From an uncultured virus (IMG/VR IMGVR_UViG_3300046822_000192) (taxonomy: Duplodnaviria > Heunggongvirae > Uroviricota > Caudoviricetes): a stretch of DNA of 20,000 bases. This document shows positions 1-20,000 of the stretch, one piece after another. The notes beneath the pieces were generated by a model that saw only the letters and a program-made list of their open reading frames with translations, was not told the DNA's origin and did no database searches. How positions within the stretch are numbered: the stretch's first letter is position 1; every line of letters begins with the position of its first letter. The stretch lies in IMG/VR virus record IMGVR_UViG_3300046822_000192, one strand, 5' to 3'. The translations under genes were made by a program, and so were the position numbers.

Positions 1-39
1 GTGAATGCGTCTGTCAGAGTTCGAATCTCTGTCTCGGTA
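1..39 (+). tRNA. 3' part of a tRNA cut by the window edge (isotype not visible)
   Basis: T-arm CAGAG-TTCGAAT-CTCTG (15-31), then acceptor 3' strand TCTCGGT and discriminator A39; lies directly before the other tRNAs. Confidence 0.75.
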
Positions 40-390: not shown

Positions 391-463
391 GGGGGCATAG
401 CAAAGTCTGGCAATGCATCCGGCTCTGACCCGGACATCGGAGGTTCAAATCCTTCTGCCCCTT
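391..463 (+). tRNA. tRNA-Gln(CTG)
   Basis: Acceptor GGGGGCA/TGCCCCT + U73, anticodon arm TCCGG-CTCTGAC-CCGGA, T-arm GGAGG-TTCAAAT-CCTTC. Confidence 0.9.
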
Positions 464-489
464 CTTACACTAACTGCCTACGATAATTT

Positions 490-4444: not shown

Positions 4445-4485
4445 ATAAGCACACGGTAAACCTGTGATACTATCCGTGTGCTTAT
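4445..4485. promoter_or_regulatory. 12-bp inverted repeat enclosing an extended -10 (TGTGATACTAT)
   Basis: ATAAGCACACGG (4445-4456) / CCGTGTGCTTAT (4474-4485); the right arm overlaps the start codon. Confidence 0.7.
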
Positions 4486-4840: not shown

Positions 4841-5316
4841 CAAAAGGTGTAAAGACTCCGTTGGAGATCCGTGCTGCGAAAATGAAAGCCAGGATGTTGC
4901 GCAAATCCGAACCTGAAGGTATTCCGGTATACTGGGCGGATAAAGATGTACGACAGGCTAGATTGCGTGTATTGTGCGAGTATATGGGGCTTACCCATAC
5001 CGAGTTTGCTTCAAAACTTGGCGTCTCTTTATCATTTCTTGACAAAGTTATTCATGGTAAGCGCCCGTGTCCTATGCCGATGTTAAAGCTTGCTGAAGTT
5101 ATCTATCGCGCATTCATCCAGCAGATGAAGCGTGATCGTGCCAAAGAGGCTCTGGAAGTGGTGAAGCTGGAATTACCGGATATCGCGACAATTGATCAGG
5201 CTATACGCATAGCTATTTTCAAATTGCATGCGCGTGGGAAGTCTCAAGAAGAGATAGCAGCGGAATTGGCTATCAGTCCAGATAAAGTAGAGGCTTGTAT
5301 TACAGCTTTGCACTAG
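4837..5316 (+). CDS. XRE-family HTH regulator with a second C-terminal HTH
   Basis: GLTHTEFASKLGVSLSFLDKVIHGKR and GKSQEEIAAELAISPDKV. Confidence 0.85.
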   Translation: MTKGVKTPLEIRAAKMKARMLRKSEPEGIPVYWADKDVRQARLRVLCEYMGLTHTEFASKLGVSLSFLDKVIHGKRPCPMPMLKLAEVIYRAFIQQMKRDRAKEALEVVKLELPDIATIDQAIRIAIFKLHARGKSQEEIAAELAISPDKVEACITALH

Positions 5317-5346: not shown

Positions 5347-5904
5347 ATGCCTGAAAATGACACCGGCCCGCAGATCTCCGATGATGAATTTCTAGCGGCT
5401 GTTTCTCCGCGAGATCTCCACGGGCGTATCAACTTGCGTATCGAGAAATCACTCCAGCACGAGATTGAGAATATTGCCGAGGATAGTCGATATCCACTCA
5501 ACTCTTCGTCTGAAGTTGTACGCTATTGCTGTCTCTACGGTCTGGAGAGATTACGCGAATGGAAGCCTGGACCGACACTTCTAGGTAACATCAAAGCCGC
5601 AAATGCTCTAATGGCGCGAGATAAGATTCAATGTGAAACTGTAGATCTACTTGCACGTTTGGATGAGCGCATCGACTGGTACATCACGAATAATTATTTC
5701 GACGAGGCCATTGACTTAGTGGCCAGAGTTCGTGCATACTTCGACAGCTCCGAAGACTTCTGGGCGTCGAGAATACGTTCTGAGATTGATGCGAAGTTCT
5801 CCGGATGGTTGGATCAGATAGATGCAAGGAGAGCTATAAATGACAAGGAAGGCCCCGACAATGAAATCCACGCAGATGATATCGAAGTTGACCCTTTTGC
5901 ATAG
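5347..5904 (+). CDS. putative ribbon-helix-helix DNA-binding protein
   Basis: RINLRIEKSLQHEIENIA...SSSEVVRYCC fits the RHH strand-helix-helix pattern; acidic tail. Confidence 0.6.
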   Translation: MPENDTGPQISDDEFLAAVSPRDLHGRINLRIEKSLQHEIENIAEDSRYPLNSSSEVVRYCCLYGLERLREWKPGPTLLGNIKAANALMARDKIQCETVDLLARLDERIDWYITNNYFDEAIDLVARVRAYFDSSEDFWASRIRSEIDAKFSGWLDQIDARRAINDKEGPDNEIHADDIEVDPFA

Positions 5905-8639: not shown

Positions 8640-9623
8640 ATGTCAAAAGTTCAACCATCAGCAAGACCTGGAGCACGTCGTCCAGGCGCACCAGCTCCCG
8701 CAGCCGCAGCCGCTGCCGGAAGCTCTTTTAAGCAGTCTCCTGAAGAGATTGCCGCATTGCGAGCACTCCCCGAGTCGGGAGACGGTGTCGAATTCGACCT
8801 CGATCCTTCGCAAGCGTCTGCTGGCTTTCTCAACGATGAGACGGTTCAGATTCTCGCAGCAAAGTTCGTGACGCGCAACTGGAAGCGTAAGGACGGTACA
8901 ATCCCGGAAGGTTCAACACCGGATATCGCTCTTGAAGTTTCCTATCGCCGTGCCGGTGACGGTCCCGATGATCGTCCGTTCCGTGAACAGTACAAGTATG
9001 GTAATTATGCCTACCATCTGCCGTCAGTGGATGGTAACAAGGTGAGTGTGCGGGCTTCTGCTCTCAAGCCGGGTCAGAATCCTCCGCAGCCGCGCAAGAC
9101 CGATCCTGGTGTTCTGTTCCTGAGTTCCATCAAGAATGCCGGTGGTTCCAATATCATCGCAGCTTTCCGTAAGGATGGCGCGAAAGCTCTTGCCGGTCTC
9201 ACGGTTCAGGTTCGTCGTCAACGTGTTGAGGGGATGAGCGAGAAGGCGAAGGATGTCCTTCTTGTTGATTTTATTAGCGGTGTGGCGACTCCGGCCCCTA
9301 GTGCTCCTGCACCAGCGGCAGCCCCGTCACCGGCAGTTCCAACAGCCGCAGCACCTGTAACGGTAGCGGCTCCGGCAGCAGCAACTCCAGCCGTATCTGG
9401 TGTGAATGCTCTTGCTGAGGAAGCGTTGCTGGACATTCTCAGTGCAGCTACGAACGGCACAATTTCGCGTTCGCAGATTGCAACAACGCTGATCCGTATC
9501 GAGAAGTGGAAAGCCCACGCCGATCGCGGTGCAATTCTCAAGGCGCTTCGAGACGATGCGTTCTTCGGTAGTCAGGATGGCGTTCTCTGGACGCTCGCTG
9601 GCAACGATGTAACGAAGCTGTAA
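8640..9623 (+). CDS. Ala/Pro-linker protein, possibly single-stranded DNA-binding protein
   Basis: SD AAGGAG upstream; beta-rich core flanked by Ala/Pro linkers plus a C-terminal helical domain; SSB role inferred only from position in the replication block. Confidence 0.55.
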   Translation: MSKVQPSARPGARRPGAPAPAAAAAAGSSFKQSPEEIAALRALPESGDGVEFDLDPSQASAGFLNDETVQILAAKFVTRNWKRKDGTIPEGSTPDIALEVSYRRAGDGPDDRPFREQYKYGNYAYHLPSVDGNKVSVRASALKPGQNPPQPRKTDPGVLFLSSIKNAGGSNIIAAFRKDGAKALAGLTVQVRRQRVEGMSEKAKDVLLVDFISGVATPAPSAPAPAAAPSPAVPTAAAPVTVAAPAAATPAVSGVNALAEEALLDILSAATNGTISRSQIATTLIRIEKWKAHADRGAILKALRDDAFFGSQDGVLWTLAGNDVTKL

Positions 9624-9650
9624 TTCGTTTCATTTCTGTATTCTGTTCGA

Positions 9651-9692
9651 TAACGGCAGGGTTTGTTACATCAAGCTCTGCCGTTAATTTTT
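9651..9692 (+). terminator. probable intrinsic terminator
   Basis: TAACGGCAGGGTTTG-TTACAT-CAAGCTCTGCCGTTA followed by ATTTTT. Confidence 0.7.
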
Positions 9693-9714
9693 GGGATTTA
9701 TATACTTTATTCTC

Positions 9715-9743
9715 TTGACTAGTGCGAGGGAGTAAAGTACTAT
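9715..9743 (+). promoter_or_regulatory. sigma70-like promoter
   Basis: TTGACT-17 nt-TACTAT, AT-rich upstream; GGAGG SD downstream. Confidence 0.8.
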
Positions 9744-9765
9744 TGTGGTCATGGAGGCGACGAAA

Positions 9766-9990
9766 ATGACAGAAACAAAGTACGCGATTCGAGGCTACTG
9801 CGGCGATACGGACGGTGGGTATGATGACGAGTCCTGCGCCGACACGTTGAAGGAAGCGAAACAACGCGCACGAAACATGATGAGCGAAGAACACATGCGC
9901 GTTGTGGAGTCCACGGTACCTGTGATCTACGTGGAAGTGGTCAACATGGAAATCGGTGAAGTCGTGGCCGACTTCGGGACGCGAATCTAA
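9766..9990 (+). CDS. small acidic hypothetical protein (74 aa)
   Basis: ATG 9766 after GGAGG; MTETKYAIRGY...ADTLKEAKQRA. Confidence 0.8.
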   Translation: MTETKYAIRGYCGDTDGGYDDESCADTLKEAKQRARNMMSEEHMRVVESTVPVIYVEVVNMEIGEVVADFGTRI

Positions 9991-10244
9991 TGGGATTCGA
10001 GGAAACAATGGAAGAGTCTAGTAGCCAAACCAGTCCGAAGCATATCCTGTACGCATTTATTCGTATATCTGCGTGCGGCTGTGCGACTGCAATGTGTGTT
10101 GATTTCCACGATCAAAATACGCTACAGACTGTTTTAGAGTATGCTCGCGAAGGTTCTGTGCGACGAGTTCCGATCGAGGAAGCCAGAAAAGTAGTCGGTC
10201 CTTGCAGGTGCGACGACCCATACAATGCTACCGTGAAAGACTAG
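9990..10244 (+). CDS. hypothetical protein (84 aa)
   Basis: TAATG coupling; CGC...C...CRC cysteines. Confidence 0.7.
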   Translation: MGFEETMEESSSQTSPKHILYAFIRISACGCATAMCVDFHDQNTLQTVLEYAREGSVRRVPIEEARKVVGPCRCDDPYNATVKD

Positions 10245-10305
10245 AAAACACCACACTACAGTTGATAGGGTGCCGTGGGTGACTGCTATTCACCCGAGCA
10301 CTTAG

Positions 10306-10338
10306 AAAGGGCCGAACCTTAATGGGTTCGGCCCTTTT
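10306..10338 (+). terminator. intrinsic terminator, possibly bidirectional
   Basis: AAAGGGCCGAACC-TTAATG-GGTTCGGCCCTTTT. Confidence 0.9.
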
Positions 10339-10422
10339 GCTGGTGAGTGTAAATTATACACTGAGCCTGCCTGTCATAATGCACTTTTCAATACAATATG
10401 ACCTAAACCTGTGTTAATATCC

Positions 10423-10452
10423 TTGACGCCGCATATGAAATTGTGCTAAGCC
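10423..10452 (+). promoter_or_regulatory. possible promoter for the recombination operon
   Basis: TTGACG, then TGTGC-TAAGCC (weak -10), then SD GAGG before TTG 10468. Confidence 0.45.
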
Positions 10453-10467
10453 GAGAGGATTGGGTCG

Positions 10468-11235
10468 TTGGAGATTACTGAAGAAGTTGTACAGATTGAA
10501 TCGAACTGGTTCTCGTCGGAGCGCGATGTCACACGTACAGACGGTATCCATCTTTCGCACGTCATAGACTACATCGAATATACCAGGAAACAGCGGGATT
10601 CCTTTGGTGGAAAGATTTCTCAGATCGGTAACAACTACGCCGTTGCTGGGTTTTCCTGGGAACGTGTGCTCTCCAATATAGCTGAAAGTAATCCAATCGA
10701 GCTGTGGGATTGGATGTTTGGACGGGCACTCACTGAGCCTGTCAATCCTTTGATTATCCGTCCCGGTGAGCAGTGTCTTGATGCCGGAGAATGTCCACGC
10801 TGTAACGGTACAGGTTACACTCCAAATGAAAACGGTGAGGCTTTTATTCACCCAGATGGCGCAAAACCGGACTGTCTCGGATGCGGTGGATGCGGTCGAG
10901 TCTTAGTCTACATGACTCCGGACGGCTACCACATTGATGATCTAGTCCTGGAAGAATGGAAGCATACTTCAAAGAGTGCCAGAAGTCCCATCGACGGTCC
11001 GAAGTTCAGCCGGTGGTTAAATTTTCAAATTCCTGTCTATCTTAAAGCATTAGGGCTTGACACGTGCAGACTTTGCGTGTATTTTAGTCGTGGTGATTAC
11101 ACAACCGGCCAGCCTATTTTCAAGAAATTTACGCTAACTTACACGCATCAAGAGATTGATGAAGTATGGGAGATGATTGCGCGTGAGGCATGCGAAATGG
11201 TTAGGCTTGGGTTGGTTGATAAGAAAGGACATTAA
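10468..11235 (+). CDS. PD-(D/E)XK nuclease (phage exonuclease-like) with inserted DnaJ-type zinc finger
   Basis: GIHLS...GFSWE...MTPDG...LEEWK...QIPVY; insert CPRCNGTG...CLGCGGCG. Confidence 0.8.
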   Translation: MEITEEVVQIESNWFSSERDVTRTDGIHLSHVIDYIEYTRKQRDSFGGKISQIGNNYAVAGFSWERVLSNIAESNPIELWDWMFGRALTEPVNPLIIRPGEQCLDAGECPRCNGTGYTPNENGEAFIHPDGAKPDCLGCGGCGRVLVYMTPDGYHIDDLVLEEWKHTSKSARSPIDGPKFSRWLNFQIPVYLKALGLDTCRLCVYFSRGDYTTGQPIFKKFTLTYTHQEIDEVWEMIAREACEMVRLGLVDKKGH

Positions 11236-11699
11236 TGGCTGATTACATTCCGAATGACGAAGCTGCTGCGATTGCAGAGAATCTGATCGAAAAATTCCAT
11301 CCGAGATTGATCGGATTGAAGATTGCGCACCTGTTGCGTATCATGCCGGTCCCGAAAAAGAGCAAGACGCCGAAACCGCAGCGTGTTGGGAAGAAGGTTG
11401 TCCTGGCAAAAGCGTCCAAGGTCTCGTCTAAGACAGCGGCTCTTGCGGCAGAGGATTTCAAGTTTGTTATCGAGTACGGTTCGCTGTACTGGGATAAGAT
11501 GGAAGACAAGGACAAGATAGCTCTTGTCGATCACGAACTATGTCATTGCGGTAACGACGCAGACGGTACTTACACTCTCCCGCACACTCTTGAAGAGTTC
11601 AAGGAGATCATTGACCGTTACGGATTCTGGAAAGATGACATCAAACAGTTTGCTGAAGCGATTGAAGGTGTCTACCACAAAGTTCGGGTGACGGCATAA
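11235..11699 (+). CDS. putative phage metallopeptidase (HExxH)
   Basis: ALVDHELCHC and HTLEEFKEIIDRYGFW. Confidence 0.85.
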   Translation: MADYIPNDEAAAIAENLIEKFHPRLIGLKIAHLLRIMPVPKKSKTPKPQRVGKKVVLAKASKVSSKTAALAAEDFKFVIEYGSLYWDKMEDKDKIALVDHELCHCGNDADGTYTLPHTLEEFKEIIDRYGFWKDDIKQFAEAIEGVYHKVRVTA

Positions 11700-12013
11700 T
11701 GCTGGATCGTTTTATGGCATTTGTCCTATTGGTTATTGTATTTATTGCAATAAGACATGTTGTGAATATTATTGTTGCGACGTGGGTTGCGGAGAAAGCC
11801 AAGAAGGCCCCTGTCAAGATCCGGCAGGTTTCTATATTAACTACCGGGCCTGATCAAAAGGATAGAATTACAGACTACATGGATGTAGTAGCCTATGCGC
11901 ACACTCCGGATGATATGTTCACTCTATTGCATAATGATGGAGTTATGACAATGATACCCTTTCGTGAAATACGGTCCATTGAAAGTCGAGTTGAAGGAGA
12001 ACAAAAGTCTTGA
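11699..12013 (+). CDS. membrane-anchored hypothetical protein
   Basis: Hydrophobic N-terminal helix; TAATG coupling. Confidence 0.75.
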   Translation: MLDRFMAFVLLVIVFIAIRHVVNIIVATWVAEKAKKAPVKIRQVSILTTGPDQKDRITDYMDVVAYAHTPDDMFTLLHNDGVMTMIPFREIRSIESRVEGEQKS

Positions 12014-12870
12014 ATACCGCAGAGTTATCCGCAGCCGGGTTTGCTCCAATCCGGCGCAGCAACAAACGATTGGTTGCTAATATTCAGAGTATTCGTAAAT
12101 CAGTTGGCAAGACACGGCTGGCTTTGACGGCCAAGAAACCGCTCGGCTATATCTCCGTTGAAATTGGCGGCGAGGAAGGCGTAGCTGACGACTTCATCAA
12201 GGATGGCATGGACGAGAATCCTGAAATTCAGATTGTCCGTATTCGTATGGACGATCCGGTATATCCGGACCCAGCTGCATACGGCACTGACGAGCGTGGC
12301 ATCAAACAGTATGATGAAGCAATGGCGCTCGCAATGCAGAATGCTGCCGCTCCTGCGATGGATGCGTTCTATGCAGCTTATTATTTCTCTATCAAGAATA
12401 TGCGTACGACCGTTGTTGATACCGGCACCGATCTCTACGCACTTGCCCGGATGGCAGACTTCGGACGGCTGGAGAAGATTCCGCAACTGGCTTATACACA
12501 AGTCAAGCGTGCATTTGCAAAGATGCTTGATGATGCCTACAGTCAGCCTGGAAACTGTCTCTGGCTGCATCACATGAAAGATCGCGGCGAGACCGTTGAA
12601 GAGAAGGGCAAGAAGAAATGGCAAGCCAGCGGCGTGTATGACATGGATGGGTGCAGTGTTGTCACGGACAAAGTTCAAGCTGTTATTGAGCTGTGGCGTG
12701 ATGATCTTACCGAAGTCAATACTAACGGTCTCATGGTTGATTTTCATGCCACGATCGTAGATAGTCGGCATTCATCAATGGCTATGGGCCAGAAGTTCAA
12801 GAATGACGATATAACATTCGCGGATATAGCTATGACTATCGCGGGTGGTAATCGATCGGATTGGGAGTAA
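12010..12870 (+). CDS. AAA_24/Sak4-like P-loop ATPase (putative ssDNA-annealing recombinase)
   Basis: Variant Walker A SIRKSVGKT and Walker B TVVDTGT; located near an exonuclease. Confidence 0.75.
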   Translation: MNTAELSAAGFAPIRRSNKRLVANIQSIRKSVGKTRLALTAKKPLGYISVEIGGEEGVADDFIKDGMDENPEIQIVRIRMDDPVYPDPAAYGTDERGIKQYDEAMALAMQNAAAPAMDAFYAAYYFSIKNMRTTVVDTGTDLYALARMADFGRLEKIPQLAYTQVKRAFAKMLDDAYSQPGNCLWLHHMKDRGETVEEKGKKKWQASGVYDMDGCSVVTDKVQAVIELWRDDLTEVNTNGLMVDFHATIVDSRHSSMAMGQKFKNDDITFADIAMTIAGGNRSDWE

Positions 12871-12872
12871 GT

Positions 12873-13193
12873 ATGGATGATCGGAGTAATCAGACTACCG
12901 TGTTCATGTCAAATGAGACGCTAGGCCGGTATCTGCAGCAGCTGCGCGAGAATCTATGTATGACGCGGCGTGAAGTGGCGTCCAGGTATGGGACATCCAC
13001 GCGGTTAATTGCCGCGCTGGAGACGGCCAAATCGCGTACATCTAGAAAAGAGCGCCGGACGTTCAAAGGCGTATATATTGAATTTCTAGGCTATGTGCGC
13101 AGGATTCGCAGAAACGATTACGTGCACCGGGATTTCAATCTTCGTGGTGCTCAAGAGAGGTTACTTGAATTTTACAACGCAGGGAGACTTTAA
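12873..13193 (+). CDS. XRE-family HTH protein
   Basis: LGRYLQQLRENLCMTRREVASRYGTSTRLIAALE; SD GGAG upstream. Confidence 0.8.
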   Translation: MDDRSNQTTVFMSNETLGRYLQQLRENLCMTRREVASRYGTSTRLIAALETAKSRTSRKERRTFKGVYIEFLGYVRRIRRNDYVHRDFNLRGAQERLLEFYNAGRL

Positions 13194-13547
13194 ATGACTA
13201 CGCGATATCGCGGCCAGAAGATCACAGCGCGTCAAAAGTTTAAGATTGGCGATCGTGTCAAGAATACTATTAGCAACGAGTATTTTACGGTACTCGGGTT
13301 CTATCGCGGCAGTGTGTTTTCGGTAAAGGTGAGACGGGAAACATCCGGTGTCGTATCGCGGGCATCTAGCATACTTCTGGACCGTGCTGTACAGCCGGAA
13401 TTGGAAGCTTATATCGATATCGATTGGGACGGTATTACTAGCGCTACCCGGCCCGCTAAATTGAATTGGTTTAGGCGTACCGCTGAGTATGTCCGTAATA
13501 GGTTTATGACGCTTCTGGATTATATCGGTCGATCACCCGTTTCCTAA
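13194..13547 (+). CDS. hypothetical protein with SH3/KOW-like N-terminus
   Basis: KFKIGDRVK beta-barrel-type start; abuts neighbouring genes. Confidence 0.7.
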   Translation: MTTRYRGQKITARQKFKIGDRVKNTISNEYFTVLGFYRGSVFSVKVRRETSGVVSRASSILLDRAVQPELEAYIDIDWDGITSATRPAKLNWFRRTAEYVRNRFMTLLDYIGRSPVS

Positions 13548-14200
13548 TGCTGAAATTTGTTGCAGTCTCAGATACGCACGGGCATCAGCCGGTTTTACCC
13601 AGCGGGGATGTTCTTATCCACGCCGGAGACGGCTGCATATCCGCAGGTACTGAAACTGAGTTTCACGATTTCTTGACGTGGTTCGGCTCTCAGCCGCATC
13701 CGAATAAGATTTTTGTTCCCGGCAATCACGACCGGTGGGTATATGACTATTTAGGGCATGCCAAACAAGCTTGTGATAGGCATAGCATTGATATGCTGAT
13801 TGATGAGCATACACGAATCGGCGGTGTAAAGATTTTTGGCAGTCCATGGACATCGCTATACGGCAAGACTGCCGGTTTTATGTATCCGCGTGCAGATGAC
13901 GACTGTGTCTGGCAGGCAATACATGGTGAGGCTGTAAAACATCAACCTGATATTTTGGTGACACATACTCCACCGGCTTGCATCCTGGATAGTTTCAAAG
14001 GACTACCTGTTGGATCTCCAGGATGTTTGAAACTTGTTACTGCACTGGTTCCGAAATATCATATTTTCGGTCACGTTCACGAAAATAACGGCATTCGGAT
14101 ACGGAAGTTCAAACGCGGCATAACATATTTTGTGAATGTCGCGCATTGCGATAATAAGAGAGATCCTGGGACTGCGCCGATTTACACTTTCTTTCTGTAG
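13547..14200 (+). CDS. calcineurin-like metallophosphoesterase
   Basis: SDTHG, HAGD, PGNHD, THTPP, FGHVHE. Confidence 0.93.
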   Translation: MLKFVAVSDTHGHQPVLPSGDVLIHAGDGCISAGTETEFHDFLTWFGSQPHPNKIFVPGNHDRWVYDYLGHAKQACDRHSIDMLIDEHTRIGGVKIFGSPWTSLYGKTAGFMYPRADDDCVWQAIHGEAVKHQPDILVTHTPPACILDSFKGLPVGSPGCLKLVTALVPKYHIFGHVHENNGIRIRKFKRGITYFVNVAHCDNKRDPGTAPIYTFFL

Positions 14201-14211
14201 GAGTTGTCTGA

Positions 14212-15072
14212 TTGCACTTGTATATAGATCCGAGGGCGGGGTCCGATAAGCTTCTGCAAGAGTTCGAAGGTGAATGCGAGTCCATGATGCTAGATGCCGG
14301 GGATGTAGCCTTCTGGGGCAACGGTCCTGACGACGAGCCGTGGTTCATCGGTATTGAATACAAACAAGTCAGCGATCTTGTCGATTGTATCAAGAGCGGT
14401 AGATTCGCCGGTACGCAGCTGCCGGAAATGGTAAAACTATACAATGTATGTATTTTGCTCGTGGAAGGGCCTGCAGTGCCTGATTTCGGAAGACCTATCG
14501 CTGATTCATTCCGGCTGTGGAGACCGTTCGGCGGCGGGCGCGGTGTACAGTATGGTATCTCTTATCAGGCTTATGACAACTTCCAGACATCGGTAGCTAT
14601 GACTGCGTTTTTGGCTGGGAAGCTGTTTATCGTAAAGCATTCCAGGGAGAAAAACGAGACCAAGCAGATTATCAAGGATCTATTTAAGCTCTATCAGAAG
14701 CCGTTCCACGAGCACACAACGCTAAGTACGATAGACTTAACTAAGGCTATGCGTGCACACAATCAGTTGAGTCTCCTGCGTGTCGAGCCTGATGACCTGG
14801 ATTATCCCAAGTTGGTGCTGCAGAAATCTCTATTCCAGATTAAGGGAATTGGATGGGAATTAGCTGGTGTTTTAGCGGAGAAGTTTGGTACTATCGAGGT
14901 CGCATTGCAGATTTCGCAACGTGCGTGGGAAGAACTGGACCGTATCGGAAAGGGTCTAGCCAAGCGCGTTTTTACAACCCTTCACGGGTATGAAGATCCA
15001 AATTACAAACGTAAGAAAGGAAAATCTAATGAAGCTAAATCTGACGTACCAACTGGGGCCGAGAGCGGCTAG
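14212..15072 (+). CDS. ERCC4-domain (XPF/Mus81/Hef-like) nuclease with tandem HhH
   Basis: IDPR...AGD...IEYKQVSD...SGRF..TQ...LLVEG; HhH IKGIGWELA and LDRIGKGLA; SD AGGAG before TTG. Confidence 0.88.
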   Translation: MHLYIDPRAGSDKLLQEFEGECESMMLDAGDVAFWGNGPDDEPWFIGIEYKQVSDLVDCIKSGRFAGTQLPEMVKLYNVCILLVEGPAVPDFGRPIADSFRLWRPFGGGRGVQYGISYQAYDNFQTSVAMTAFLAGKLFIVKHSREKNETKQIIKDLFKLYQKPFHEHTTLSTIDLTKAMRAHNQLSLLRVEPDDLDYPKLVLQKSLFQIKGIGWELAGVLAEKFGTIEVALQISQRAWEELDRIGKGLAKRVFTTLHGYEDPNYKRKKGKSNEAKSDVPTGAESG

Positions 15073-15709
15073 ATTCGCATTATGGACACTTGTGGTCGAG
15101 CTAGGTGTTATTTTTCTAGCATACATTCTTCTATCCATTCCCGCACCACCGCTTGAATCTGATACAAAAGTCATGCAGCGGCATATTGCCTATCTGGAGA
15201 ATCGGCAGGAGACGCTGGATCTCGCCATCGAATTCGGATTTGATCCGGTTATTGTCGATGTTACTCGTGAGCTGGCGCACAATACATTCCGTGACGAGTA
15301 TGCCAAGCGCAAGAAACTCACATGGCGCTTTATCAAGACAGAGCATGAGTTGACTTACATGATCCTCAGTTTGATTCAAACGGAGTCCCATGGCGATCCT
15401 AGGGCAATTAATGTGCCCAATGGCCCGTCGTCCGGTATCGGTCTGACTCAACTTATCCTGTCTACAGCCCGGCTGTATGACCGCAGTGTGAATCAGCAGG
15501 AATTACAAACAATTCCGGTGCACTTGAAAATTGCTGTGCATTACTTTGTGGATCTTCTGGAGAAGTACAACGGAAATTATACGCTGGCGGTGCTGGCCTG
15601 GAATCGCGGTCCTGGAACTGTGGATCGGGTGATTGCTCTCGGCAATTCACCGGAAAATGGATATGCGAGAGCTGTGTTCGAGCAGGCTGCAGTGAGAAAT
15701 TCGAAATGA
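15029..15709 (+). CDS. lytic transglycosylase (SLT domain) with N-terminal transmembrane helix
   Basis: IQTES (catalytic Glu), GIGLTQL, AVLAWNRGPG; TM FALWTLVVELGVIFLAYILLSI. Confidence 0.9.
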   Translation: MKLNLTYQLGPRAARFALWTLVVELGVIFLAYILLSIPAPPLESDTKVMQRHIAYLENRQETLDLAIEFGFDPVIVDVTRELAHNTFRDEYAKRKKLTWRFIKTEHELTYMILSLIQTESHGDPRAINVPNGPSSGIGLTQLILSTARLYDRSVNQQELQTIPVHLKIAVHYFVDLLEKYNGNYTLAVLAWNRGPGTVDRVIALGNSPENGYARAVFEQAAVRNSK

Positions 15710-16065
15710 GTCCCAAAGTATTTATTGCGGCATTAATTTCTGGCGTGTTTGTATCCTGTATTGCAGTCATGGCGTTCACAGTAGTGGCTGTTCATACCGA
15801 TGCACAAAACGCTTTTGAAATGGAAGTGCAGGCACAGCACGACGTTATACGTCTGCATAGTTTGGAGCGATCGTTACGCATCGAAGATAGGAAGGGGCAT
15901 ATTGTGAGAAAATTTGTTCAAGTAGCTGTGGCTGTCGGGGCGGGTGGATTTAAATATATTTACGCTGTAACAGATGACGGCGTCATCATGAAATATGACA
16001 GTATCGGCCCCGGTGGCGAGTTTGGGTGGGTTGAGCTGCCAAAAGCGCCTGACAAAATAGGTTAA
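15706..16065 (+). CDS. membrane-anchored hypothetical protein
   Basis: ATGA overlap; N-terminal TM helix. Confidence 0.7.
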   Translation: MSPKVFIAALISGVFVSCIAVMAFTVVAVHTDAQNAFEMEVQAQHDVIRLHSLERSLRIEDRKGHIVRKFVQVAVAVGAGGFKYIYAVTDDGVIMKYDSIGPGGEFGWVELPKAPDKIG

Positions 16066-16070
16066 ATAAC

Positions 16071-16241
16071 ATGTGGTGGAAACTTACTATTTTGTTCACA
16101 GCTAATCTGTTTGCATATACATTGCTGTATGTTACGTACGCGTGGGCAGCTAAGACTATGCCGTCTCGTATAGTCTGGACTGCCGCTGTACTAGCTGGAA
16201 CGCTACTAGGATCTACGGTCGGTGAGCGGCTATTCAAATAA
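16071..16241 (+). CDS. small two-TM membrane protein (56 aa, holin-like; not in ORF track)
   Basis: MWWKLTILFTANLFAYTLLYVTYAWAAKTMPSRIVWTAAVLAGTLLGSTVGERLFK. Confidence 0.65.
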   Translation: MWWKLTILFTANLFAYTLLYVTYAWAAKTMPSRIVWTAAVLAGTLLGSTVGERLFK

Positions 16242-16244
16242 TTG

Positions 16245-16273
16245 TTGACTCCACCATACAGCAGTGGTAAGAT
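16245..16273 (+). promoter_or_regulatory. sigma70-like promoter with extended -10
   Basis: TTGACT-17 nt (ending TGG)-TAAGAT. Confidence 0.8.
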
Positions 16274-16278
16274 TCAAT

Positions 16279-16371
16279 CTCGGTACGATTGATTTAGGTC
16301 AGTCGTAGCTGGCGTGCTTCGATCTGGGGGGATGATTTTTGTCGCCCCGTTCGAGGCCGCCCCATGTCGAG
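16279..16371 (+). ncRNA. candidate structured RNA (three-way junction), family unknown
   Basis: Starts at the predicted TSS; closing stem CTCGG/TCGAG, hairpin TACGATTGAT-TTAG-GTCAGTCGTA, long bulged hairpin 16311-16361. Confidence 0.5.
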
Positions 16372-16424
16372 GCTTACATTTACAAAAAAGGAGCATTTGA
16401 AAAACTGTGAGGTAATATAAAAAA

Positions 16425-17096
16425 GTGTTGAAACTCAAATTGATTCTCTTATTGCTGTTCGTCAATTCCACCTGCTTCGCGCAGGTAACCCCGCCTCTGG
16501 AATCTCTTCCGGAGACACACTCCGAATGTGTTCTTCCTCTTATCGACCCCCTATTCACGTACAATGTTGATAGTCTGGTTGACCAGACGGTTATGGTTTC
16601 TTTGTCTGACGGGTACACCGCAGCCTATTACGTGCCAGCCGGGTCCTATGTGCGGTCATTTGTGCCAAACACGGACGGTTTGTTCTCCTGGGTTTTGATA
16701 CGCGGAACAGATAGACTCTCAGCCTATACCACATTAGAGCGTAATAACAACCTGCTCGTAACATGTAGTAATCCGAATATGCTGAAGCATACATTCGGAG
16801 GTACAGGATGGACCGGTGTAGCTATTGTAAATACCAACTCGGATAGGTTGGGTTTCGATTCTCCATCTTCTATACGTGTGAGTCTACTCGCTGAAGGCCA
16901 CCAAATTGGCCGGACACTGGTAGTGCATCCTGGTACGCAAAGCATTGTTTGGTTGGCGCAGTTCTTGCCGGACGATTTTGACATGAACGAGTTTCACACA
17001 TTTACTCTTGTGACGGACGTGCCCGGTGCTGGAATATTCCTAGTCAGCTATCGAGATCCGGTTCATCCGGCAAACGTTCTAGTCACAGAGTACTAA
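16425..17096 (+). CDS. secreted beta-rich hypothetical protein
   Basis: Signal peptide MLKLKLILLLLFVNSTCFA; WTGVAIVN segment; start may be TTG 16428. Confidence 0.75.
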   Translation: MLKLKLILLLLFVNSTCFAQVTPPLESLPETHSECVLPLIDPLFTYNVDSLVDQTVMVSLSDGYTAAYYVPAGSYVRSFVPNTDGLFSWVLIRGTDRLSAYTTLERNNNLLVTCSNPNMLKHTFGGTGWTGVAIVNTNSDRLGFDSPSSIRVSLLAEGHQIGRTLVVHPGTQSIVWLAQFLPDDFDMNEFHTFTLVTDVPGAGIFLVSYRDPVHPANVLVTEY

Positions 17097-17142
17097 AGAG
17101 CTTAAAAAATAGTCCTGCATGTGGAAAATTTAGGGCCGCACT

Positions 17143-17176
17143 TGTGTTATTCTGCCTCCTCACTTTTCGGTGAGGA
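17143..17176 (+). promoter_or_regulatory. extended -10 plus leader hairpin upstream of nrdJ
   Basis: TGTGTTATTCT then TCCTCAC-TTTTCG-GTGAGGA. Confidence 0.5.
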
Positions 17177-17190
17177 TTAACAGATACCCC

Positions 17191-18894
17191 ATGACAATTT
17201 GCGGCCCTACAGTCCCCTTCTGTGAAGAAGTTCATTCCCAGAAATATCGATCGGAAGGTGAATCTTTCCGTGAAGCAATCAATCGCGTAGCCTCTGCACT
17301 CCAAGATGATGATGAACATTTCCACAAGATCCAGGAGATCATGCTGGATATGCGATTTATGCCCGGTGGCCGTATTCAAACGGCTATGGGCAGCACGAAG
17401 AACGTCACGCCATACTCCTGTTTTGTAATTCCCATCGAAGATAGTTTTGTAGACGGCTCCAATTCCATCATGAATGCTGCAACCAATGCGGCGACAACGA
17501 TGCGAATGGGGGGAGGCGTGGGTTATGATTTCAGTTCTCTACGGCCTCGTGGCAGTCTTATTAAGAAACTCCAGTCGCTCTCTAGCGGTCCAATCAGTTT
17601 TATGCATATCTATGATGCGGTTTGCCGGGCAACGGCGTCCAGCGGGCATCGTAGGGGTGCTCAAATGTCTGTCTTGAGAGTAGACCACCCCGACATTGAA
17701 GAATTCATTCATGCAAAGAATAACCAGGACAAGCTAACAGGGTTCAATACCTCAATTGCAATCACGGACGAGTTCATGGCGGCTGTGCTTAGTCACAAAA
17801 AATTTGCACTTCGATTCGGCGGCGAAGTTCACCGGTTCGTAGATGCCTGCGAGCTGTGGGAAAATATCATGCGTTCCACGTGGGATTGGGCAGAGCCTGG
17901 AGTTCTGTTTATCGACCAGATTAATCGCATGAACAACCTTTGGTACTGTGAAACTCTTGCAGCGACCAATCCTTGTAGCGAACAGCCTCTCCCGCCATGG
18001 GGCGCGTGTCTGCTTGGCAGTTTCAATCTTGTTAAATATCTGCATCGGGATAAGATGGATCAGTGCTGGCGTTTCGATTACAGTAAATTCTACAGTGATA
18101 TTCCACACATTGTAGACATGATGGATAATGTTATTGATCGTGCCGTCTATCCGATGGATGCCCAATATCGTGAGGCGATATCTAAACGCCGGATGGGTCT
18201 CGGTATTACCGGACTGGCCAACGCAGGCGAAGCTCTAGGTTTTGAATATGGCAGTCTCAAGTTTCTCAATTTCGAGAATTCTATCTTACAAGAGCTGGCC
18301 GAGGGCGCATATCGTGCCAGTGTTAATCGAGCTATTAGAAAAGGGGCATTCCCATTATTTGATAGGGACAAATACTGCGCCGGAAATTTCATCAAAGGAT
18401 TATCCAAAGAAACTCAGGCTGCAATCTACACGCACGGTATTCGCAACAGTCATCTATTGAGTATCGCGCCGACAGGTACAATCAGTTTCTGTGCTGATAA
18501 TGTATCATCTGGAATTGAGCCTGTTTTCGCGTACTCGTTCGATCGAACTGTAATTGAATTTGGCGGGGCACGCACCGAAAAAATTGAAGACTATGGTGTG
18601 AAATTTCTGGGAGTTCGCGGTAAGCGTTCCAGCGAAGTTACTGCAGATCAGCACATTGATGTACTCGCGACAGCCCAACGGTGGTCGGACAGTTCTGTAA
18701 GCAAAACTGTCAATATGACCGGTGACATGCCGTGGGAATCTTTCAAAAATATCTATACAGAAGCGTGGAAGCGTGGTGCAAAGGGTTGCGCGACGTTCAA
18801 TGCGGACGGCAAACGTGCCGGGATGTTAATTGCTAAGGAGGATGAAGCGGTATCCTGCGCGATCGGACCTGACGGTAAAAAGGATTGCGGATAG
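17191..18894 (+). CDS. nrdJ: class II (adenosylcobalamin-dependent) ribonucleotide reductase
   Basis: SCFV, GGGVGYDFS, RRGAQM, TNPCSEQPL, ACLLGS, IAPTGTIS, SSGIEP, C-terminal Cys pair; no C-terminal YY of class I and no nrdB adjacent. Confidence 0.93.
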   Translation: MTICGPTVPFCEEVHSQKYRSEGESFREAINRVASALQDDDEHFHKIQEIMLDMRFMPGGRIQTAMGSTKNVTPYSCFVIPIEDSFVDGSNSIMNAATNAATTMRMGGGVGYDFSSLRPRGSLIKKLQSLSSGPISFMHIYDAVCRATASSGHRRGAQMSVLRVDHPDIEEFIHAKNNQDKLTGFNTSIAITDEFMAAVLSHKKFALRFGGEVHRFVDACELWENIMRSTWDWAEPGVLFIDQINRMNNLWYCETLAATNPCSEQPLPPWGACLLGSFNLVKYLHRDKMDQCWRFDYSKFYSDIPHIVDMMDNVIDRAVYPMDAQYREAISKRRMGLGITGLANAGEALGFEYGSLKFLNFENSILQELAEGAYRASVNRAIRKGAFPLFDRDKYCAGNFIKGLSKETQAAIYTHGIRNSHLLSIAPTGTISFCADNVSSGIEPVFAYSFDRTVIEFGGARTEKIEDYGVKFLGVRGKRSSEVTADQHIDVLATAQRWSDSSVSKTVNMTGDMPWESFKNIYTEAWKRGAKGCATFNADGKRAGMLIAKEDEAVSCAIGPDGKKDCG

Positions 18895-18913
18895 ATTCCG
18901 GGTGTGCTATATT
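18885..18913 (+). promoter_or_regulatory. promoter for a probable leaderless transcript
   Basis: TTGCGG-17 nt (ending TGTGC)-TATATT-7 nt-ATG 18921. Confidence 0.55.
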
Positions 18914-18920
18914 TCTACGC

Positions 18921-19313
18921 ATGAGCACGCCAAAGCTAGCTCGACTAGATAATATATTGGGATATACTACGCAGGCTCGCGATAAGACTCTGCGGACTTT
19001 CCGGCTGCGCTGCAAACATCTTACGCTAGCAGAAGAACGAGGCTCACCACCTTTCCGTATTTGTATGAGATGCGGAGCAATTGAACGTGGCTGGTATTGT
19101 GGATATCAAGTTCTTGTTTTGCGGTCCGAGAGTACCGCTGCTGCGCAGCCCGATCGACATGTCATAAGTTTTATCAGTGACAGACATTCATTAAGTGTCT
19201 TTAAACAATCTTGGCCTATGTACTGGGTGGGACAGAGTCACGAAAATTTCGGCAAGTACTGGGACTATAAATCCCTGACAGCAATTCCACTGCCGGGAAA
19301 GAAAACACAATAA
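18921..19313 (+). CDS. hypothetical protein with CxH...CxxC motif
   Basis: CKH...ICMRCG; TAATG coupling to the next gene. Confidence 0.7.
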   Translation: MSTPKLARLDNILGYTTQARDKTLRTFRLRCKHLTLAEERGSPPFRICMRCGAIERGWYCGYQVLVLRSESTAAAQPDRHVISFISDRHSLSVFKQSWPMYWVGQSHENFGKYWDYKSLTAIPLPGKKTQ

Positions 19314-20000
19314 TGATAGGAATTCCTACTCCTATACCACCTATAGGCACTAAGTTCGGTCAATGGACTGTAACTGGAAAAGCTGAAAGCCGTAAGAATG
19401 GTAAGAAGAGTAGTAAGATATATGTAGCTGTGGTATGTTCATGCGGAAAGGTCTTTTCACAGCATTTATTATCTACGTTGCATAATGGGAAGAGTACTAA
19501 ATGCAGATCTTGTTCAGCTAGAGAAGTGAAACAAGTGAAAGCTTTGCCAGTAGAAATTGATAAAGTATACGGCCAATGGCGTGTAACTGGACGTGCGCCG
19601 AGCAGTAAAAATGGATCAACTAGGGTTAATGTCGTGTGTTCTTGTGGCGTATCTGGTACGTGTTATTTGGGTACATTGATATCAGGAGTTAGTCAACGTT
19701 GCCGTAAATGTGCTTGGATAGCACAAAGGAAGCCTGAAACATCTGGACTGACCCGTATGATAAGTGTATATAAAAACAGCGCTATAAAACGTAAATATAC
19801 TTGGAATTTATCAATTTCTGCCGCTAAATATTTATTTGAATCCGATTGCTATTACTGCGGGACTGCTCCGAATCAGATTAGCACACCACGCATCAGTACC
19901 AGTGATCCCAACTATGCGCCAAATGTTTTTATCTACAATGGTATAGATCGTATTGATAATACTGAAGGGTATATTGATGGGAATGTTGTGGCCTGCTGTG
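19313..20000 (+). CDS. HNH homing-endonuclease-like protein (3' truncated; not in ORF track)
   Basis: Open from ATG 19313 to the window end: two GQW(T/R)V...VCSCG...CRxC repeats, then CYYCG...NGIDRIDNTEGYIDGNVVACC. Confidence 0.85.
   Translation, partial: MIGIPTPIPPIGTKFGQWTVTGKAESRKNGKKSSKIYVAVVCSCGKVFSQHLLSTLHNGKSTKCRSCSAREVKQVKALPVEIDKVYGQWRVTGRAPSSKNGSTRVNVVCSCGVSGTCYLGTLISGVSQRCRKCAWIAQRKPETSGLTRMISVYKNSAIKRKYTWNLSISAAKYLFESDCYYCGTAPNQISTPRISTSDPNYAPNVFIYNGIDRIDNTEGYIDGNVVACC

What the first reader, a model, noticed from the sequence alone, without database searches (positions are those of the whole stretch)
16245..16424. Promoter-driven three-way-junction RNA of unknown family
Seen: directly after TTGACT-17-TAAGAT lies a 93-nt element with P1 CTCGG/TCGAG (16279-83/16367-71), P2 a 10-bp hairpin with TTAG loop (16284-16307), and P3 GGCG-GC-TTCGA-GGGG-GATGA paired with TTGTC-CCCC-TCGAG-GC-CGCC (16311-16361), followed by an A-rich linker. 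Several G-U pairs favour + strand RNA structure over a DNA palindrome. It is not a tRNA and I do not recognise it as a known riboswitch. Inference: a novel phage sRNA or a cis-regulatory leader for the secreted-protein gene.
Basis: partly seen in the sequence, partly recalled or inferred. Interest (0 to 1): 0.7.

Follow-up and report, generated by a model that had tools for sequence, protein, structure and literature searches.

The report
Two-hairpin leader RNA after phage promoter
Right after a likely promoter in an uncultured soil phage, the RNA folds into two very stable hairpins that match no known RNA family and most likely form the protective front end of the next gene's message.

Summary
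The element is real in part. Two adjacent hairpins, P2 (16284-16307) and P3 (16311-16361), fold robustly on the + strand only: z -5.2 with 0 of 200 shuffles as good, against z -0.85 for the - strand. All 6 non-Watson-Crick pairs are G-U on the + strand. The 5-bp P1, and so the 'three-way junction', is not robust. It reaches pair probability 0.5 or more in 2 of 28 transcript contexts and about 0 if transcription starts at the predicted +1 (about 16280).

Rfam, ARAGORN and two covariance models found no known family. No homologue was found anywhere, so covariation cannot be tested. The downstream gene is an ORFan with a signal peptide. No U-tract terminator follows P3.

Three related phages carry, in the same slot after the transglycosylase gene, a consensus promoter followed by a different structured RNA. 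In two of them I placed its start at the predicted +1.

Best reading (0.42): a cis-acting 5' leader, with promoter-proximal stabiliser or processing hairpins followed by an A-rich ribosome-loading stretch.

Rivals: processed non-coding RNA, barrier/processing site for upstream transcripts, put-like antiterminator, DNA operator, chance.

Side finding: a covarying tandem-hairpin RNA family, not in Rfam, lies next to a 740-aa protein in large phages.

The parts
16071..16241 (+). Upstream ORF p56 (56 aa, two hydrophobic segments). It is the last gene of the transglycosylase (SLT) - p119 - p56 block. Its stop codon lies 4 nt before the -35 hexamer.
   Evidence: ORF list, translation. No Pfam or PHROG match.
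16245..16273 (+). Sigma-70-type promoter-like site: TTGACT, 17-nt spacer, TAAGAT, with extended -10 TG at 16265-16266. The inferred +1 is about 16280.
   Evidence: Consensus scan, 9 of 12 matches plus TG. Sequence. Analogous consensus promoters sit in the same slot in L099, L096 and L095. The TSS is an inference and was not measured.
16279..16283 (+). 5' strand of the proposed P1 (CUCGG). Weak; it lies mostly upstream of or at the predicted +1.
   Evidence: Pair probability >=0.5 in 2 of 28 contexts, and about 0 for 5' ends at 16280 or later.
16284..16307 (+). Hairpin P2: 10 bp (2 G-U), loop UUAG. It starts about 4 nt after the predicted +1.
   Evidence: Present in every fold. Pair probability 0.97-0.98.
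16311..16361 (+). Hairpin P3: 21 bp (4 G-U), interrupted by a 1-nt bulge, a 2x1 internal loop and a G/G mismatch, with loop UUU. It is about two helical turns long.
   Evidence: Present in every fold. Pair probability 0.94-0.95.
16367..16371 (+). 3' strand of the proposed P1 (UCGAG). In longer transcripts it pairs instead with 16391-16399.
16362..16424 (+). A-rich (44% A), largely unpaired linker. It holds AAGGAG (16389-16394) and the likely Shine-Dalgarno GAGG (16410-16413), 11 nt before the GTG start.
   Evidence: Composition and mean unpaired probability 0.51, against 0.18-0.21 in P2 and P3. Sequence.
16425..17096 (+). Downstream ORF p223 (223 aa) with an N-terminal Sec-type signal peptide (MLKLKLILLLLFVNSTCFA/Q). 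It is an ORFan.
   Evidence: Translation. Only itself among 5.8 billion clusters. Exhaustive HMMER gave 3 marginal hits at E 2e-5 to 8e-5. No Pfam or PHROG match. The signal peptide was read from the sequence and is an inference.

Best explanation
The element is the structured front end of a 5' leader. A host-type (sigma-70) promoter at 16245-16273 starts an mRNA at about 16280.

The first ~80 nt of that mRNA fold co-transcriptionally into two very stable hairpins, P2 and P3. A 63-nt A-rich, mostly single-stranded stretch follows and carries the ribosome-binding site of the secreted-protein gene p223, with nrdJ behind it.

The hairpins most likely act in cis on the fate of the message. A stem-loop within a few nucleotides of the 5' end shields the transcript from 5'-end-dependent decay. 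The two-turn, slightly irregular P3 could also be an RNase III processing site. The open A-rich stretch would load ribosomes.

Shown here: the structure, its strand, its position relative to the promoter-like site and the gene, and the absence of a terminator.

Inferred: the transcription start, and the stabilising or processing role.
For: - P2 and P3 are far more stable than shuffles, on the + strand only, and are insensitive to transcript boundaries.
- All 6 non-Watson-Crick pairs in P2+P3 are G-U on the + strand. If DNA-palindrome mismatches were unoriented, that would happen 1 time in 64 (my count on the structure).
- The element fills one of the few gaps in a tightly packed + strand gene array. 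The promoter-like site lies 4 nt after the upstream stop, and P2 starts about 4 nt after the predicted +1.
- No U-tract follows P3, and the terminator scan lists nothing at the element. Transcription should therefore run on into p223.
- The linker is 44% A with mean unpaired probability 0.51.
- Same-slot architecture in relatives that share ERCC4-SLT synteny. L099 has TTGACA-17-TAGACT, L096 has TTGACA-17-GATACT and L095 has TTGACA-17-TATTCT. In L099 and L096, structured RNA begins within a few nt of the predicted +1 and runs into the next gene without a terminator; in L095 I only noted a small hairpin at about +2.
- A second promoter plus structured leader exists in the same phage at L083 4089-4240 (z -4.5). 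In G001, 2 of 11 + strand TTGACN-16..18-TANNNT matches are followed by strong structure (mononucleotide shuffles).
- From recall: 5'-terminal stem-loops stabilise E. coli ompA mRNA, and RNase III hairpins punctuate T7 early transcripts.
Against: - No homologue of the element was found, so there is no covariation support.
- The only other copy, in G001, is 100% identical. The metagenome contigs that I laid show no variant in the part of the element they cover; of the 4 runs only X14 covers part of it, from 16317 on.
- The promoter is a consensus match only, and such matches are not enriched locally (13 against 10.3 expected).
- The TSS, the transcript ends and the host are unknown.
- The SD-to-GTG spacing of 11 nt is long.
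- Only 2 of 11 promoter-like matches in the phage are followed by such structure. It is therefore not a universal feature of this phage's transcripts.
- Stabiliser, RNase III site and other cis roles cannot be told apart by computation.
Confidence: 0.42

Rival explanations
1. The element is a stable non-coding RNA in its own right. It would be transcribed from the promoter and released from the leader by processing, then act in trans or with a phage or host protein. This would mirror the RNA 'cargo' that related phages carry in the same slot.
For: - In relatives, the slot after SLT holds RNA-protein pairs.
- One is a tandem-hairpin family (R1), which sits in this slot in L096 and L099. In 17 further copies from other large-phage contigs, 94.4% of cells pair against 64.2% in shuffles and 13 of 17 pairs show compensatory change. 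R1 lies next to a 740-aa protein.
- The other is TROVE/Ro60 genes in L095 and L086, with a structured non-coding stretch upstream in L095.
- In L096 and L099 the RNA also lacks its own terminator and precedes the gene directly.
Against: - No partner gene is present. There is no TROVE gene and no 740-aa homologue in the window or in the 48-kb G001.
- p223 carries a signal peptide, so it cannot be a cytoplasmic RNA partner (inference).
- The R1 model does not match the window at E<=10.
- No terminator follows P3.
- No antisense target longer than 11 nt exists in G001.
Confidence: 0.15
2. The element is an intercistronic processing or 3'-protection element for read-through transcripts from the upstream SLT-p119-p56 block. 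The hairpins would be RNase III sites or 3'-exonuclease barriers that define the 3' end of the upstream message, regardless of the local promoter.
For: - No terminator lies between p56 and the element, so upstream transcripts must run through it.
- P3 spans about two helical turns with small irregularities, the size class of RNase III substrates (recalled).
- The other large gaps in this phage (9620-9760 and 10240-10470) also hold strong structures, there with U-tract terminators.
Against: - The hairpins lie downstream of the promoter-like site, not upstream of it. This placement favours a role at the 5' end of the new transcript.
- RNase III susceptibility cannot be predicted from sequence.
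- This role is compatible with the best explanation rather than exclusive of it.
Confidence: 0.12
3. The element is a put-like processive antiterminator. The nascent two-hairpin RNA would bind the elongating RNA polymerase and make it resistant to pausing and termination downstream, as putL of phage HK022 does.
For: - The architecture matches the description of putL: about 70 nt, two stem-loops, just downstream of an early promoter, starting at +3 (PMC9378689, passages read).
- Here about 78 nt form two stem-loops from about +5.
- A -10-like TACGAT lies at 16284-16289. PutL carries a -10-like pause element (same paper).
Against: - There is no sequence similarity to the HK022 immunity region that holds putL and putR. 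The best blastn matches are 9-12-nt identities, at most 19.3 bits and E>=1.6, and none falls on the stretches taken as putL (4225-4330) or putR (5465-5570).
- The HK022 stretches that I took to be putL and putR fold no better than shuffles (z -0.31 and +0.45). They are described as irregular stems with a triplex, whereas P2 is a perfect 10-bp hairpin.
- No evident intrinsic terminator lies downstream in the window for it to act on. Terminator-like sites number 6 against 5.3 expected.
Confidence: 0.06
4. The element works at the DNA level. The P2 sequence would be an imperfect inverted repeat (8 of 10 positions symmetric, 4-bp spacer) centred at about +16, serving as an operator for one of the phage helix-turn-helix proteins. 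The RNA hairpin would then be a by-product.
For: - An inverted repeat sits right after the promoter-like site.
- HTH-domain ORFs lie at 4837-5316 and 12861-13193.
- Operators overlapping +1 to +25 are classical (lacO, recalled).
Against: - It does not explain P3, a 51-nt structure.
- It does not explain why every mismatch of both palindromes is G-T on the + strand (6 of 6).
- It does not explain the strong strand asymmetry.
- No second copy of the repeat exists in the window or in G001.
Confidence: 0.05
5. The structure has no selected function. It would be a fortuitously stable fold in a short non-coding spacer.
For: - The element is a singleton with no covariation data.
- Structure z-scores alone are known to give false positives.
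Against: - 0 of 200 shuffles fold as well.
- It is the third-ranked + strand locus in 48 kb.
- The G-U pairs are all oriented to one strand.
- It is placed precisely after a promoter-like site, and the same slot in relatives has an analogous architecture.
Confidence: 0.12

Closest known systems
5'-UTR stabiliser hairpins of the E. coli ompA type
   Same: A stable stem-loop sits within a few nucleotides of the 5' end. A second hairpin follows, then a single-stranded segment carrying the ribosome-binding site. Total leader length is similar, about 145 nt here.
   Different: No sequence relationship is expected or seen. The 5' end here is only predicted. Stabilisation has not been measured. The host and its RNases are unknown.
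HK022 putL/putR antiterminator RNAs (PMC9378689, passages read)
   Same: Two adjacent stem-loops of about 70-80 nt in total lie immediately downstream of a sigma-70 promoter in a phage. A -10-like hexamer lies near the start.
   Different: There is no sequence similarity. The put stretches are thermodynamically unremarkable (z about 0) and irregular, whereas P2 and P3 are very stable (z -5.2). No downstream terminators are evident. I built no put covariance model.
RNase III processing hairpins of the phage T7 early region (recalled)
   Same: An irregular hairpin of about two helical turns lies in an intergenic position of a phage polycistronic unit (P3).
   Different: The T7 sites separate genes along one long transcript, whereas this one sits directly after a promoter. 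Cleavage cannot be predicted from sequence.
R1 tandem-hairpin motif found here in relatives L096 and L099 and in 9 large phage contigs (not in Rfam)
   Same: Same genomic slot in L096 and L099 (after the SLT block, directly after a consensus promoter, before the next gene, with no terminator). It also comes as two hairpins in tandem.
   Different: The window does not match the R1 covariance model at E<=10. The conserved GCYAU and GCUUCCUUCU signatures are absent from the element: the 11-nt GCTTCCTTCTA signature has a single window match within 2 mismatches, on the - strand at 9847-9857, against 4.5 expected by chance. The 740-aa partner gene is absent.
Y RNAs next to Ro60/TROVE genes (family knowledge recalled; TROVE genes seen in L095 and L086)
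   Same: A structured non-coding RNA lies in the same variable slot of related phages.
   Different: No TROVE gene occurs in the window or in G001. No Rfam Y-RNA match was found. There is no long terminal stem joining the 5' and 3' ends, since P1 is marginal.

Membership tests
Any Rfam 15 family (riboswitches, ribozymes, sRNAs, leaders) | Covariance-model score at or above the family's gathering threshold | tested here: not met
   Over the whole window at the gathering threshold, only 5 tRNAs at 44-464 were found. Over 16000-16600 at E<=10, the only match was BLV_package at 16470-16513 (19.5 bits against a threshold of 70), which lies outside the element.
tRNA / tmRNA | Cloverleaf detected by ARAGORN or by Rfam RF00005 | tested here: not met
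   ARAGORN finds 5 tRNAs at 44-464 and nothing near 16280. There is no RF00005 match at E<=10.
Intrinsic terminator / terminator-ended sRNA | GC-rich hairpin followed directly by a U-tract | tested here: not met
   P3 is followed by CCCAUGUCGAGG. The terminator scan lists no site in 16245-16424.
HK022 put RNA | Two stem-loops of about 70 nt immediately downstream of an early promoter | tested here: met
   P2 and P3 span 16284-16361 (78 nt), starting about 4 nt after the predicted +1. The putL description comes from PMC9378689. The TSS here is predicted only.
HK022 put RNA | Sequence similarity to putL/putR | tested here: not met
   blastn of 16242-16424 against HK022 24000-30200 gave best matches of 9-12-nt identities, at most 19.3 bits and E>=1.6, none on the stretches taken as putL or putR. 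The put positions were inferred from an inverted repeat. No put covariance model was built.
HK022 put RNA | Binding to the RNA polymerase beta' zinc-binding domain and terminator read-through | not testable with these tools
   This needs transcription assays.
   There was no match in the window or in G001 at E<=10. The 4 training copies scored 80.8-93 bits.
   tblastn against the window and G001 gave nothing below E 3.7.
Y RNA / Ro60 system | Adjacent TROVE-domain gene | tested here: not met
   tblastn with the L086 and L095 TROVE proteins against the window and the 48-kb G001 gave a best E of 0.042 over 27 aa. No TROVE domain appeared in the 33 window ORFs scanned with Pfam. The rest of the ~115-kb genome has not been seen.
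5'-terminal stabiliser hairpin (ompA type) | Stem-loop beginning within a few nucleotides of the mRNA 5' end | tested here: inconclusive
   P2 starts 4 nt after the position that the -10 hexamer predicts as +1. No 5'-end data exist, and no RNA run holds the stretch.
5'-terminal stabiliser hairpin (ompA type) | Longer mRNA half-life that depends on the hairpin | not testable with these tools
   This needs half-life measurements with and without P2 and P3.
Riboswitch (unknown class) | Conserved ligand-binding core with an alternative expression platform, supported by covariation | tested here: inconclusive
   No homologues were found, so no conservation can be assessed. P2 and P3 show no competing fold (probabilities 0.94-0.98 in all 28 contexts). 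The SD region is only partly paired (unpaired probability 0.30).

The most novel reading that the evidence does not exclude
The P2-P3 RNA may be a new, so far singleton class of phage 'cargo' non-coding RNA. It would be cut from the leader and act with a protein encoded elsewhere in the unseen ~60% of the genome, or with a host protein. This would parallel the slot-sharing RNA-protein pairs of its relatives: the R1 tandem hairpins with a 740-aa protein, and Ro60/TROVE with Y-like RNA. The locus after the transglycosylase block would then be a hotspot where large soil phages exchange RNA-based modules.
Probability: 0.12. Interest if true: 0.6.

Novelty: new member of a known kind. Interest (0 to 1): 0.3.

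Why it matters
On its own the element is a modest find. It is a well-folded, strand-specific leader structure in a phage lineage with almost no characterised relatives. It could serve as a portable 5' stabiliser or processing module if experiments confirm that role.

Its wider value is the context it exposed. The slot after the transglycosylase gene in this group of large soil phages repeatedly holds a strong promoter followed by structured RNA. In relatives that RNA belongs to a covarying tandem-hairpin family that is absent from Rfam and tied to a 740-aa protein of unknown function, or it sits next to Ro60/TROVE genes. That pattern points to under-explored RNA-protein modules in phages.

Tried and rejected
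**Homologue searches, all negative**
- blastn (distant mode) of 16000-16700 against 50,697 phage records found no match.
- Relatives were sought through p223, SLT and the helicase as single proteins in IMG/VR. None was confirmed.
- Through nrdJ, 80 loci were kept of 287 relatives, all at 63% identity or less. None matched model R2.
- The SLT alignment A1 (51 sequences) gave 1 IMG/VR locus, 18 metagenome loci and 0 genome-contig loci.
- p119, p56 and p223 have no tblastn match in any of these 19 loci.
- Covariance model R2 of the element found only itself in 100 sources (754 kb). The next best hit was 16.7 bits at E 3.2. I left out L001 and L084 (the identical G001 copy), L089, and L092 (a duplicate of L085).
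- A pattern scan of viral contigs gave 0 hits.
- A pattern scan of genome contigs gave 10 hits, about the number I expect by chance (my estimate about 17). All scored 19.8 bits or less with R2.

**Other checks that led nowhere**
- No listed sequencing run is on record as RNA.
- The 4 DNA runs I laid hold only near-identical fragments and show no variant in the element. Only X14 covers part of it, from 16317.
- The earlier-findings index held nothing for this place or sequence.
- The antisense-target search in G001 found at most 11 nt of perfect complementarity, at E 1.8.
- I considered a leader peptide. The only candidate is a 7-codon TTG ORF at 16398-16421, placed 3 nt after AAGGAG, which is too close. 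I did not pursue it.
- I considered an NrdR box or a B12 riboswitch for nrdJ. There is no Rfam match, and no such motif was seen by eye.
- No reverse transcriptase or other RNA-linked enzyme was found in the 33 window ORFs scanned with Pfam, 13 of them also with PHROGs.

Full report
**What is there**

TTGACT (16245-16250), a 17-nt spacer and TAAGAT (16268-16273) form a sigma-70-type promoter-like site with an extended -10 TG at 16265-16266.

Downstream, two hairpins are unmistakable:
- P2 (16284-16307) has 10 bp and a UUAG loop.
- P3 (16311-16361) has 21 bp, interrupted by a 1-nt bulge, a 2x1 loop and a G/G mismatch, with a UUU loop.

The 93-nt element folds at -45.7 kcal/mol, against -29.65 +/- 3.1 for dinucleotide shuffles (z -5.18, 0 of 200 as good). 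The 153-nt stretch 16272-16424 gives z -4.02 on the + strand (0 of 200) but z -0.85 on the - strand (35 of 200).

All 6 non-Watson-Crick pairs of P2 and P3 are G-U on the + strand. Unoriented palindrome mismatches would give that pattern 1 time in 64. The structure therefore belongs to + strand RNA.

In a GC-corrected scan of 110-nt windows across the 48-kb near-identical record G001, this is the third-ranked + strand locus. It comes after two other intergenic regions, 10235-10420 and 9605-9760.

**What is not there**

The proposed P1 (16279-83 with 16367-71) is not a stable helix:
- It is missing from the MFE of both the 93-nt and the 153-nt folds.
- Across 28 combinations of transcript 5' and 3' ends, P2 and P3 keep mean pair probabilities of 0.97-0.98 and 0.94-0.95.
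- P1 reaches 0.5 or more in only 2 of those 28 combinations, and 0.00-0.03 whenever the RNA starts at 16280 or later.
- A -10 hexamer ending at 16273 places +1 at about 16280, so most of the 5' strand of P1 would not even be in the promoter-driven transcript.

The element is two tandem hairpins, not a demonstrated three-way junction.

**Context**

The window comes from an uncultured phage seen in soil and rhizosphere metagenomes. G001 is rated 41% complete at 48 kb.

The window carries:
- 5 tRNA genes;
- a DinG-like helicase, a metallophosphatase, an ERCC4 nuclease, an SLT transglycosylase and a class II ribonucleotide reductase (nrdJ), followed by an HNH endonuclease;
- HTH proteins and a metallopeptidase.

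Known phages are very distant. The best helicase match is 28% identical.

Genes are packed on the + strand. The 183-nt gap at 16242-16424 is one of the few spacers.
- Upstream lie SLT, p119 (N-terminal membrane segment) and p56 (two hydrophobic segments).
- Downstream lies p223, which has a classical Sec signal peptide. It has no relatives in 5.8 billion clusters and only 3 marginal hits in an exhaustive HMMER search.

**Known families**

- Rfam 15 gives nothing at the gathering threshold apart from the tRNAs. At E<=10 over 16000-16600 it gives only an irrelevant hit inside p223.
- ARAGORN finds nothing here.
- No U-tract follows P3, and the terminator scan lists no site in the element. A terminator-ended sRNA is therefore not supported.
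- No complementary stretch longer than 11 nt exists elsewhere in G001.

**Search for homologues**

- DNA search of 50,697 phage records found no match.
- The G001 copy is 100% identical. G001 matches the window without a single difference between 10985 and 16734.
- The metagenome contigs I laid are near-identical fragments with no variant in the element. Only X14 covers part of it.
- The SLT protein does have a family, with about 50 relatives at 42-80% identity. Through an alignment of 51 of them I fetched 19 loci.
- ERCC4-SLT synteny holds in 9 of these 19 loci, or 8 distinct since L085 and L092 are the same contig range. p119, p56 and p223 have no match in any of them.
- A covariance model of the element (R2) found only itself in 100 sources totalling 754 kb.
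- Two pattern scans gave 0 hits and 10 hits, about the number expected by chance (my estimate about 17), which R2 scored at 19.8 bits or less.

Covariation therefore cannot be assessed. The closest relatives (P0003 at 80% and P0004 at 70%) are listed only with source 'lgn' (Logan, by the tool's source list), and I could not read those contigs.

**The same slot in relatives**

The slot after SLT is variable, but its architecture recurs:
- L099: TTGACA-17-TAGACT
- L096: TTGACA-17-GATACT
- L095: TTGACA-17-TATTCT

In L099 and L096, structured RNA begins within a few nucleotides of the predicted +1 and runs into the next gene without a terminator. In L095 I noted only a small hairpin at about +2, and the non-coding stretch before the TROVE gene is about 365 nt.

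In L096 and L099 the RNA is a pair of tandem hairpins of one family (R1), and 10 of 17 pairs are compensatory among the 4 copies. In L095 and L086 the next gene is a TROVE/Ro60 protein.

The window element is not a member of R1. There is no match at E<=10, while the training copies score 80.8-93 bits. The window and G001 encode neither the 740-aa R1 partner nor a TROVE protein.

The same phage has a second promoter plus structured leader at L083 4089-4240 (TTGACT-16-TATAGT), upstream of a tRNA gene at L083 4414 and about 2 kb upstream of the window's tRNA cluster. Its z-score is -4.5, similar on both strands. Overall, 2 of 11 + strand TTGACN-16..18-TANNNT matches in G001 are followed by strong structure (mononucleotide shuffles).

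**Mechanism**

The best-supported reading is a cis-acting 5' leader.
- P2 starts about 4 nt after the predicted +1, and P3 follows after 3 nt.
- Next comes a 63-nt stretch that is 44% A with mean unpaired probability 0.51. It carries AAGGAG and the likely SD GAGG, 11 nt before the GTG start.

This layout resembles the ompA-type stabiliser leader: a 5'-terminal hairpin, a second hairpin, and a single-stranded ribosome-binding segment (recalled). P3, at about two helical turns, is in the size class of RNase III substrates such as the T7 early processing sites (recalled).

The structure, the strand and the placement are shown. The TSS, any stabilisation and any cleavage are inferred. I put this reading at 0.42.

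**Rivals**

- A processed stand-alone ncRNA, by analogy with the cargo RNAs of relatives, but with no partner gene in sight (0.15).
- A 3'-end barrier or processing site for read-through from the upstream block, which is compatible with the main reading (0.12).
- Chance structure (0.12).
- A put-like antiterminator (0.06). The architecture fits the published description of putL: about 70 nt, two stem-loops, just after PL (PMC9378689, passages read). However, there is no sequence similarity. The HK022 stretches I took to be putL and putR fold no better than shuffles (z -0.31 and +0.45), unlike P2 and P3. No downstream terminators stand out (6 found against 5.3 expected).
- A DNA operator formed by the P2 inverted repeat (0.05). 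This does not explain P3 or the oriented G-U pairs.

**Verdict**

This is a real, strand-specific two-hairpin RNA structure directly after a plausible promoter. It is unmatched in Rfam and is so far a singleton.

It is most likely an ordinary kind of element, a structured 5' leader, in an unusual and poorly sampled phage. The three-way junction and the sRNA reading are not supported. The 'novel family' claim cannot be tested until closer relatives can be read. Interest is modest (0.3).

**Side finding**

A pattern scan of IMG/VR followed by R1 found 17 further copies at E<=0.01, in 9 of the 80 loci searched. The copies occur in arrays of 1-3, in contigs of 66-485 kb.
- 94.4% of cells pair, against 64.2 +/- 2.0% in shuffles and 41-56% in slid controls.
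- 13 of 17 pairs show compensatory change. This alignment was fitted to the model, which favours the structure.
- A homologue of the L096 740-aa protein lies next to the array in 6 of the 9 loci. It is upstream of the RNA in three and downstream in three. The other three loci showed no match and are only 1.7-3 kb long.
- The protein has no Pfam domain. It matches PHROG 33734, of unknown function, and unnamed ESM Atlas clusters.
- L096 and L099 have no Rfam match at E<=1.

I did not search the literature for this motif.

Noticed in passing
L096 4682-4842; L099 3123-3281; also L117, L118, L120, L149, L150, L163, L174, L182, L183: An RNA family (R1) not in Rfam: tandem hairpins with conserved GGNGCYAU, GCUUCCUUCU and UAG signatures. 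In 17 further copies, 94.4% of cells pair against 64.2% in shuffles, and 13 of 17 pairs show compensatory change. A homologue of a 740-aa protein of unknown function (PHROG 33734) lies next to the array in 6 of 9 loci. This looks like a phage RNA-protein pair. It is not present in the window.
   Followed up: partly
L095 1029-1393 and 1394-2068; L086 1103-2494: In two relatives, the slot after SLT holds a TROVE/Ro60-like gene (Pfam TROVE E 5e-22 and 1e-11; PHROG 850 'RNA-binding protein'). In L095 it is preceded by a TTGACA-17-TATTCT promoter and about 365 nt of structured non-coding RNA containing two similar units (CCGGAGUUAGNCGGUUA...). These may be Y-like RNAs. There is no Rfam match at E<=1.
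   Followed up: partly
L083 4089-4240 (G001 24089-24240, about 2 kb upstream of the window start): A second promoter plus structured leader in the same phage. TTGACT-16-TATAGT with TG is followed by a hairpin and then a 10-bp closing stem that encloses two hairpins. The z-score is -4.5 on the + strand and -4.3 on the - strand. It lies before a short ORF and a tRNA gene at L083 4414, about 2 kb upstream of the window's tRNA cluster. There is no Rfam match.
   Followed up: partly
window 9620-9760: An intrinsic terminator (15-bp stem at 9651-9686, then AAUUUUU) is followed by a second hairpin (9703-9739). This second hairpin contains the -35 TTGACT (9715-9720) and the first 2 nt of the -10 TACTAT (9738-9743) of the next promoter. 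The whole stretch has z -5.72; in the 110-nt window scan, window 9635 folds at -43.7 kcal/mol on the + strand against -22.8 on the - strand.
   Followed up: partly
window 10240-10470: A strongly structured 223-nt spacer (z -5.88) with a 15-bp terminator hairpin at 10305-10338 and further hairpins. An extended -10-like repeat TAAACCTGTGNTANTATCC is shared between 10404-10425 and 4457-4478.
   Followed up: no
window 17134-17207: A long-range stem (GGGCCGCA at 17134-17141 with UGCGGCCC at 17200-17207) encloses a CCUCAC/GUGAGG hairpin and the probable nrdJ start (ATG at 17191). The GAGGA Shine-Dalgarno-like sequence is therefore paired. The region has z -4.42 and is similarly stable on both strands.
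   Followed up: no
window 17702-20000 compared with G001: Mosaic strains. G001 shows only isolated differences from the window up to 17701 (16 mismatches between 6231 and 16736, none from 10985 to 16734). The 3' part of nrdJ is diverged (84% identity over 17000-18900, with differences mostly at intervals of 3 nt). There is no match after about 18900, so p142 and the HNH gene are replaced.
   Followed up: partly
window 44-464: A cluster of five tRNA genes: Ser-GCU, Leu-UAA, Pro-UGG, Pro-CGG and Gln-CUG.
   Followed up: no
window 14990-16241: An SLT transglycosylase is followed by p119 (N-terminal membrane anchor) and p56 (two hydrophobic segments). The true SLT start is probably near 15092, since the database protein has 205 aa. 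This may be a lysis-type cassette. p119 and p56 have no homologues in the 19 related loci.
   Followed up: no
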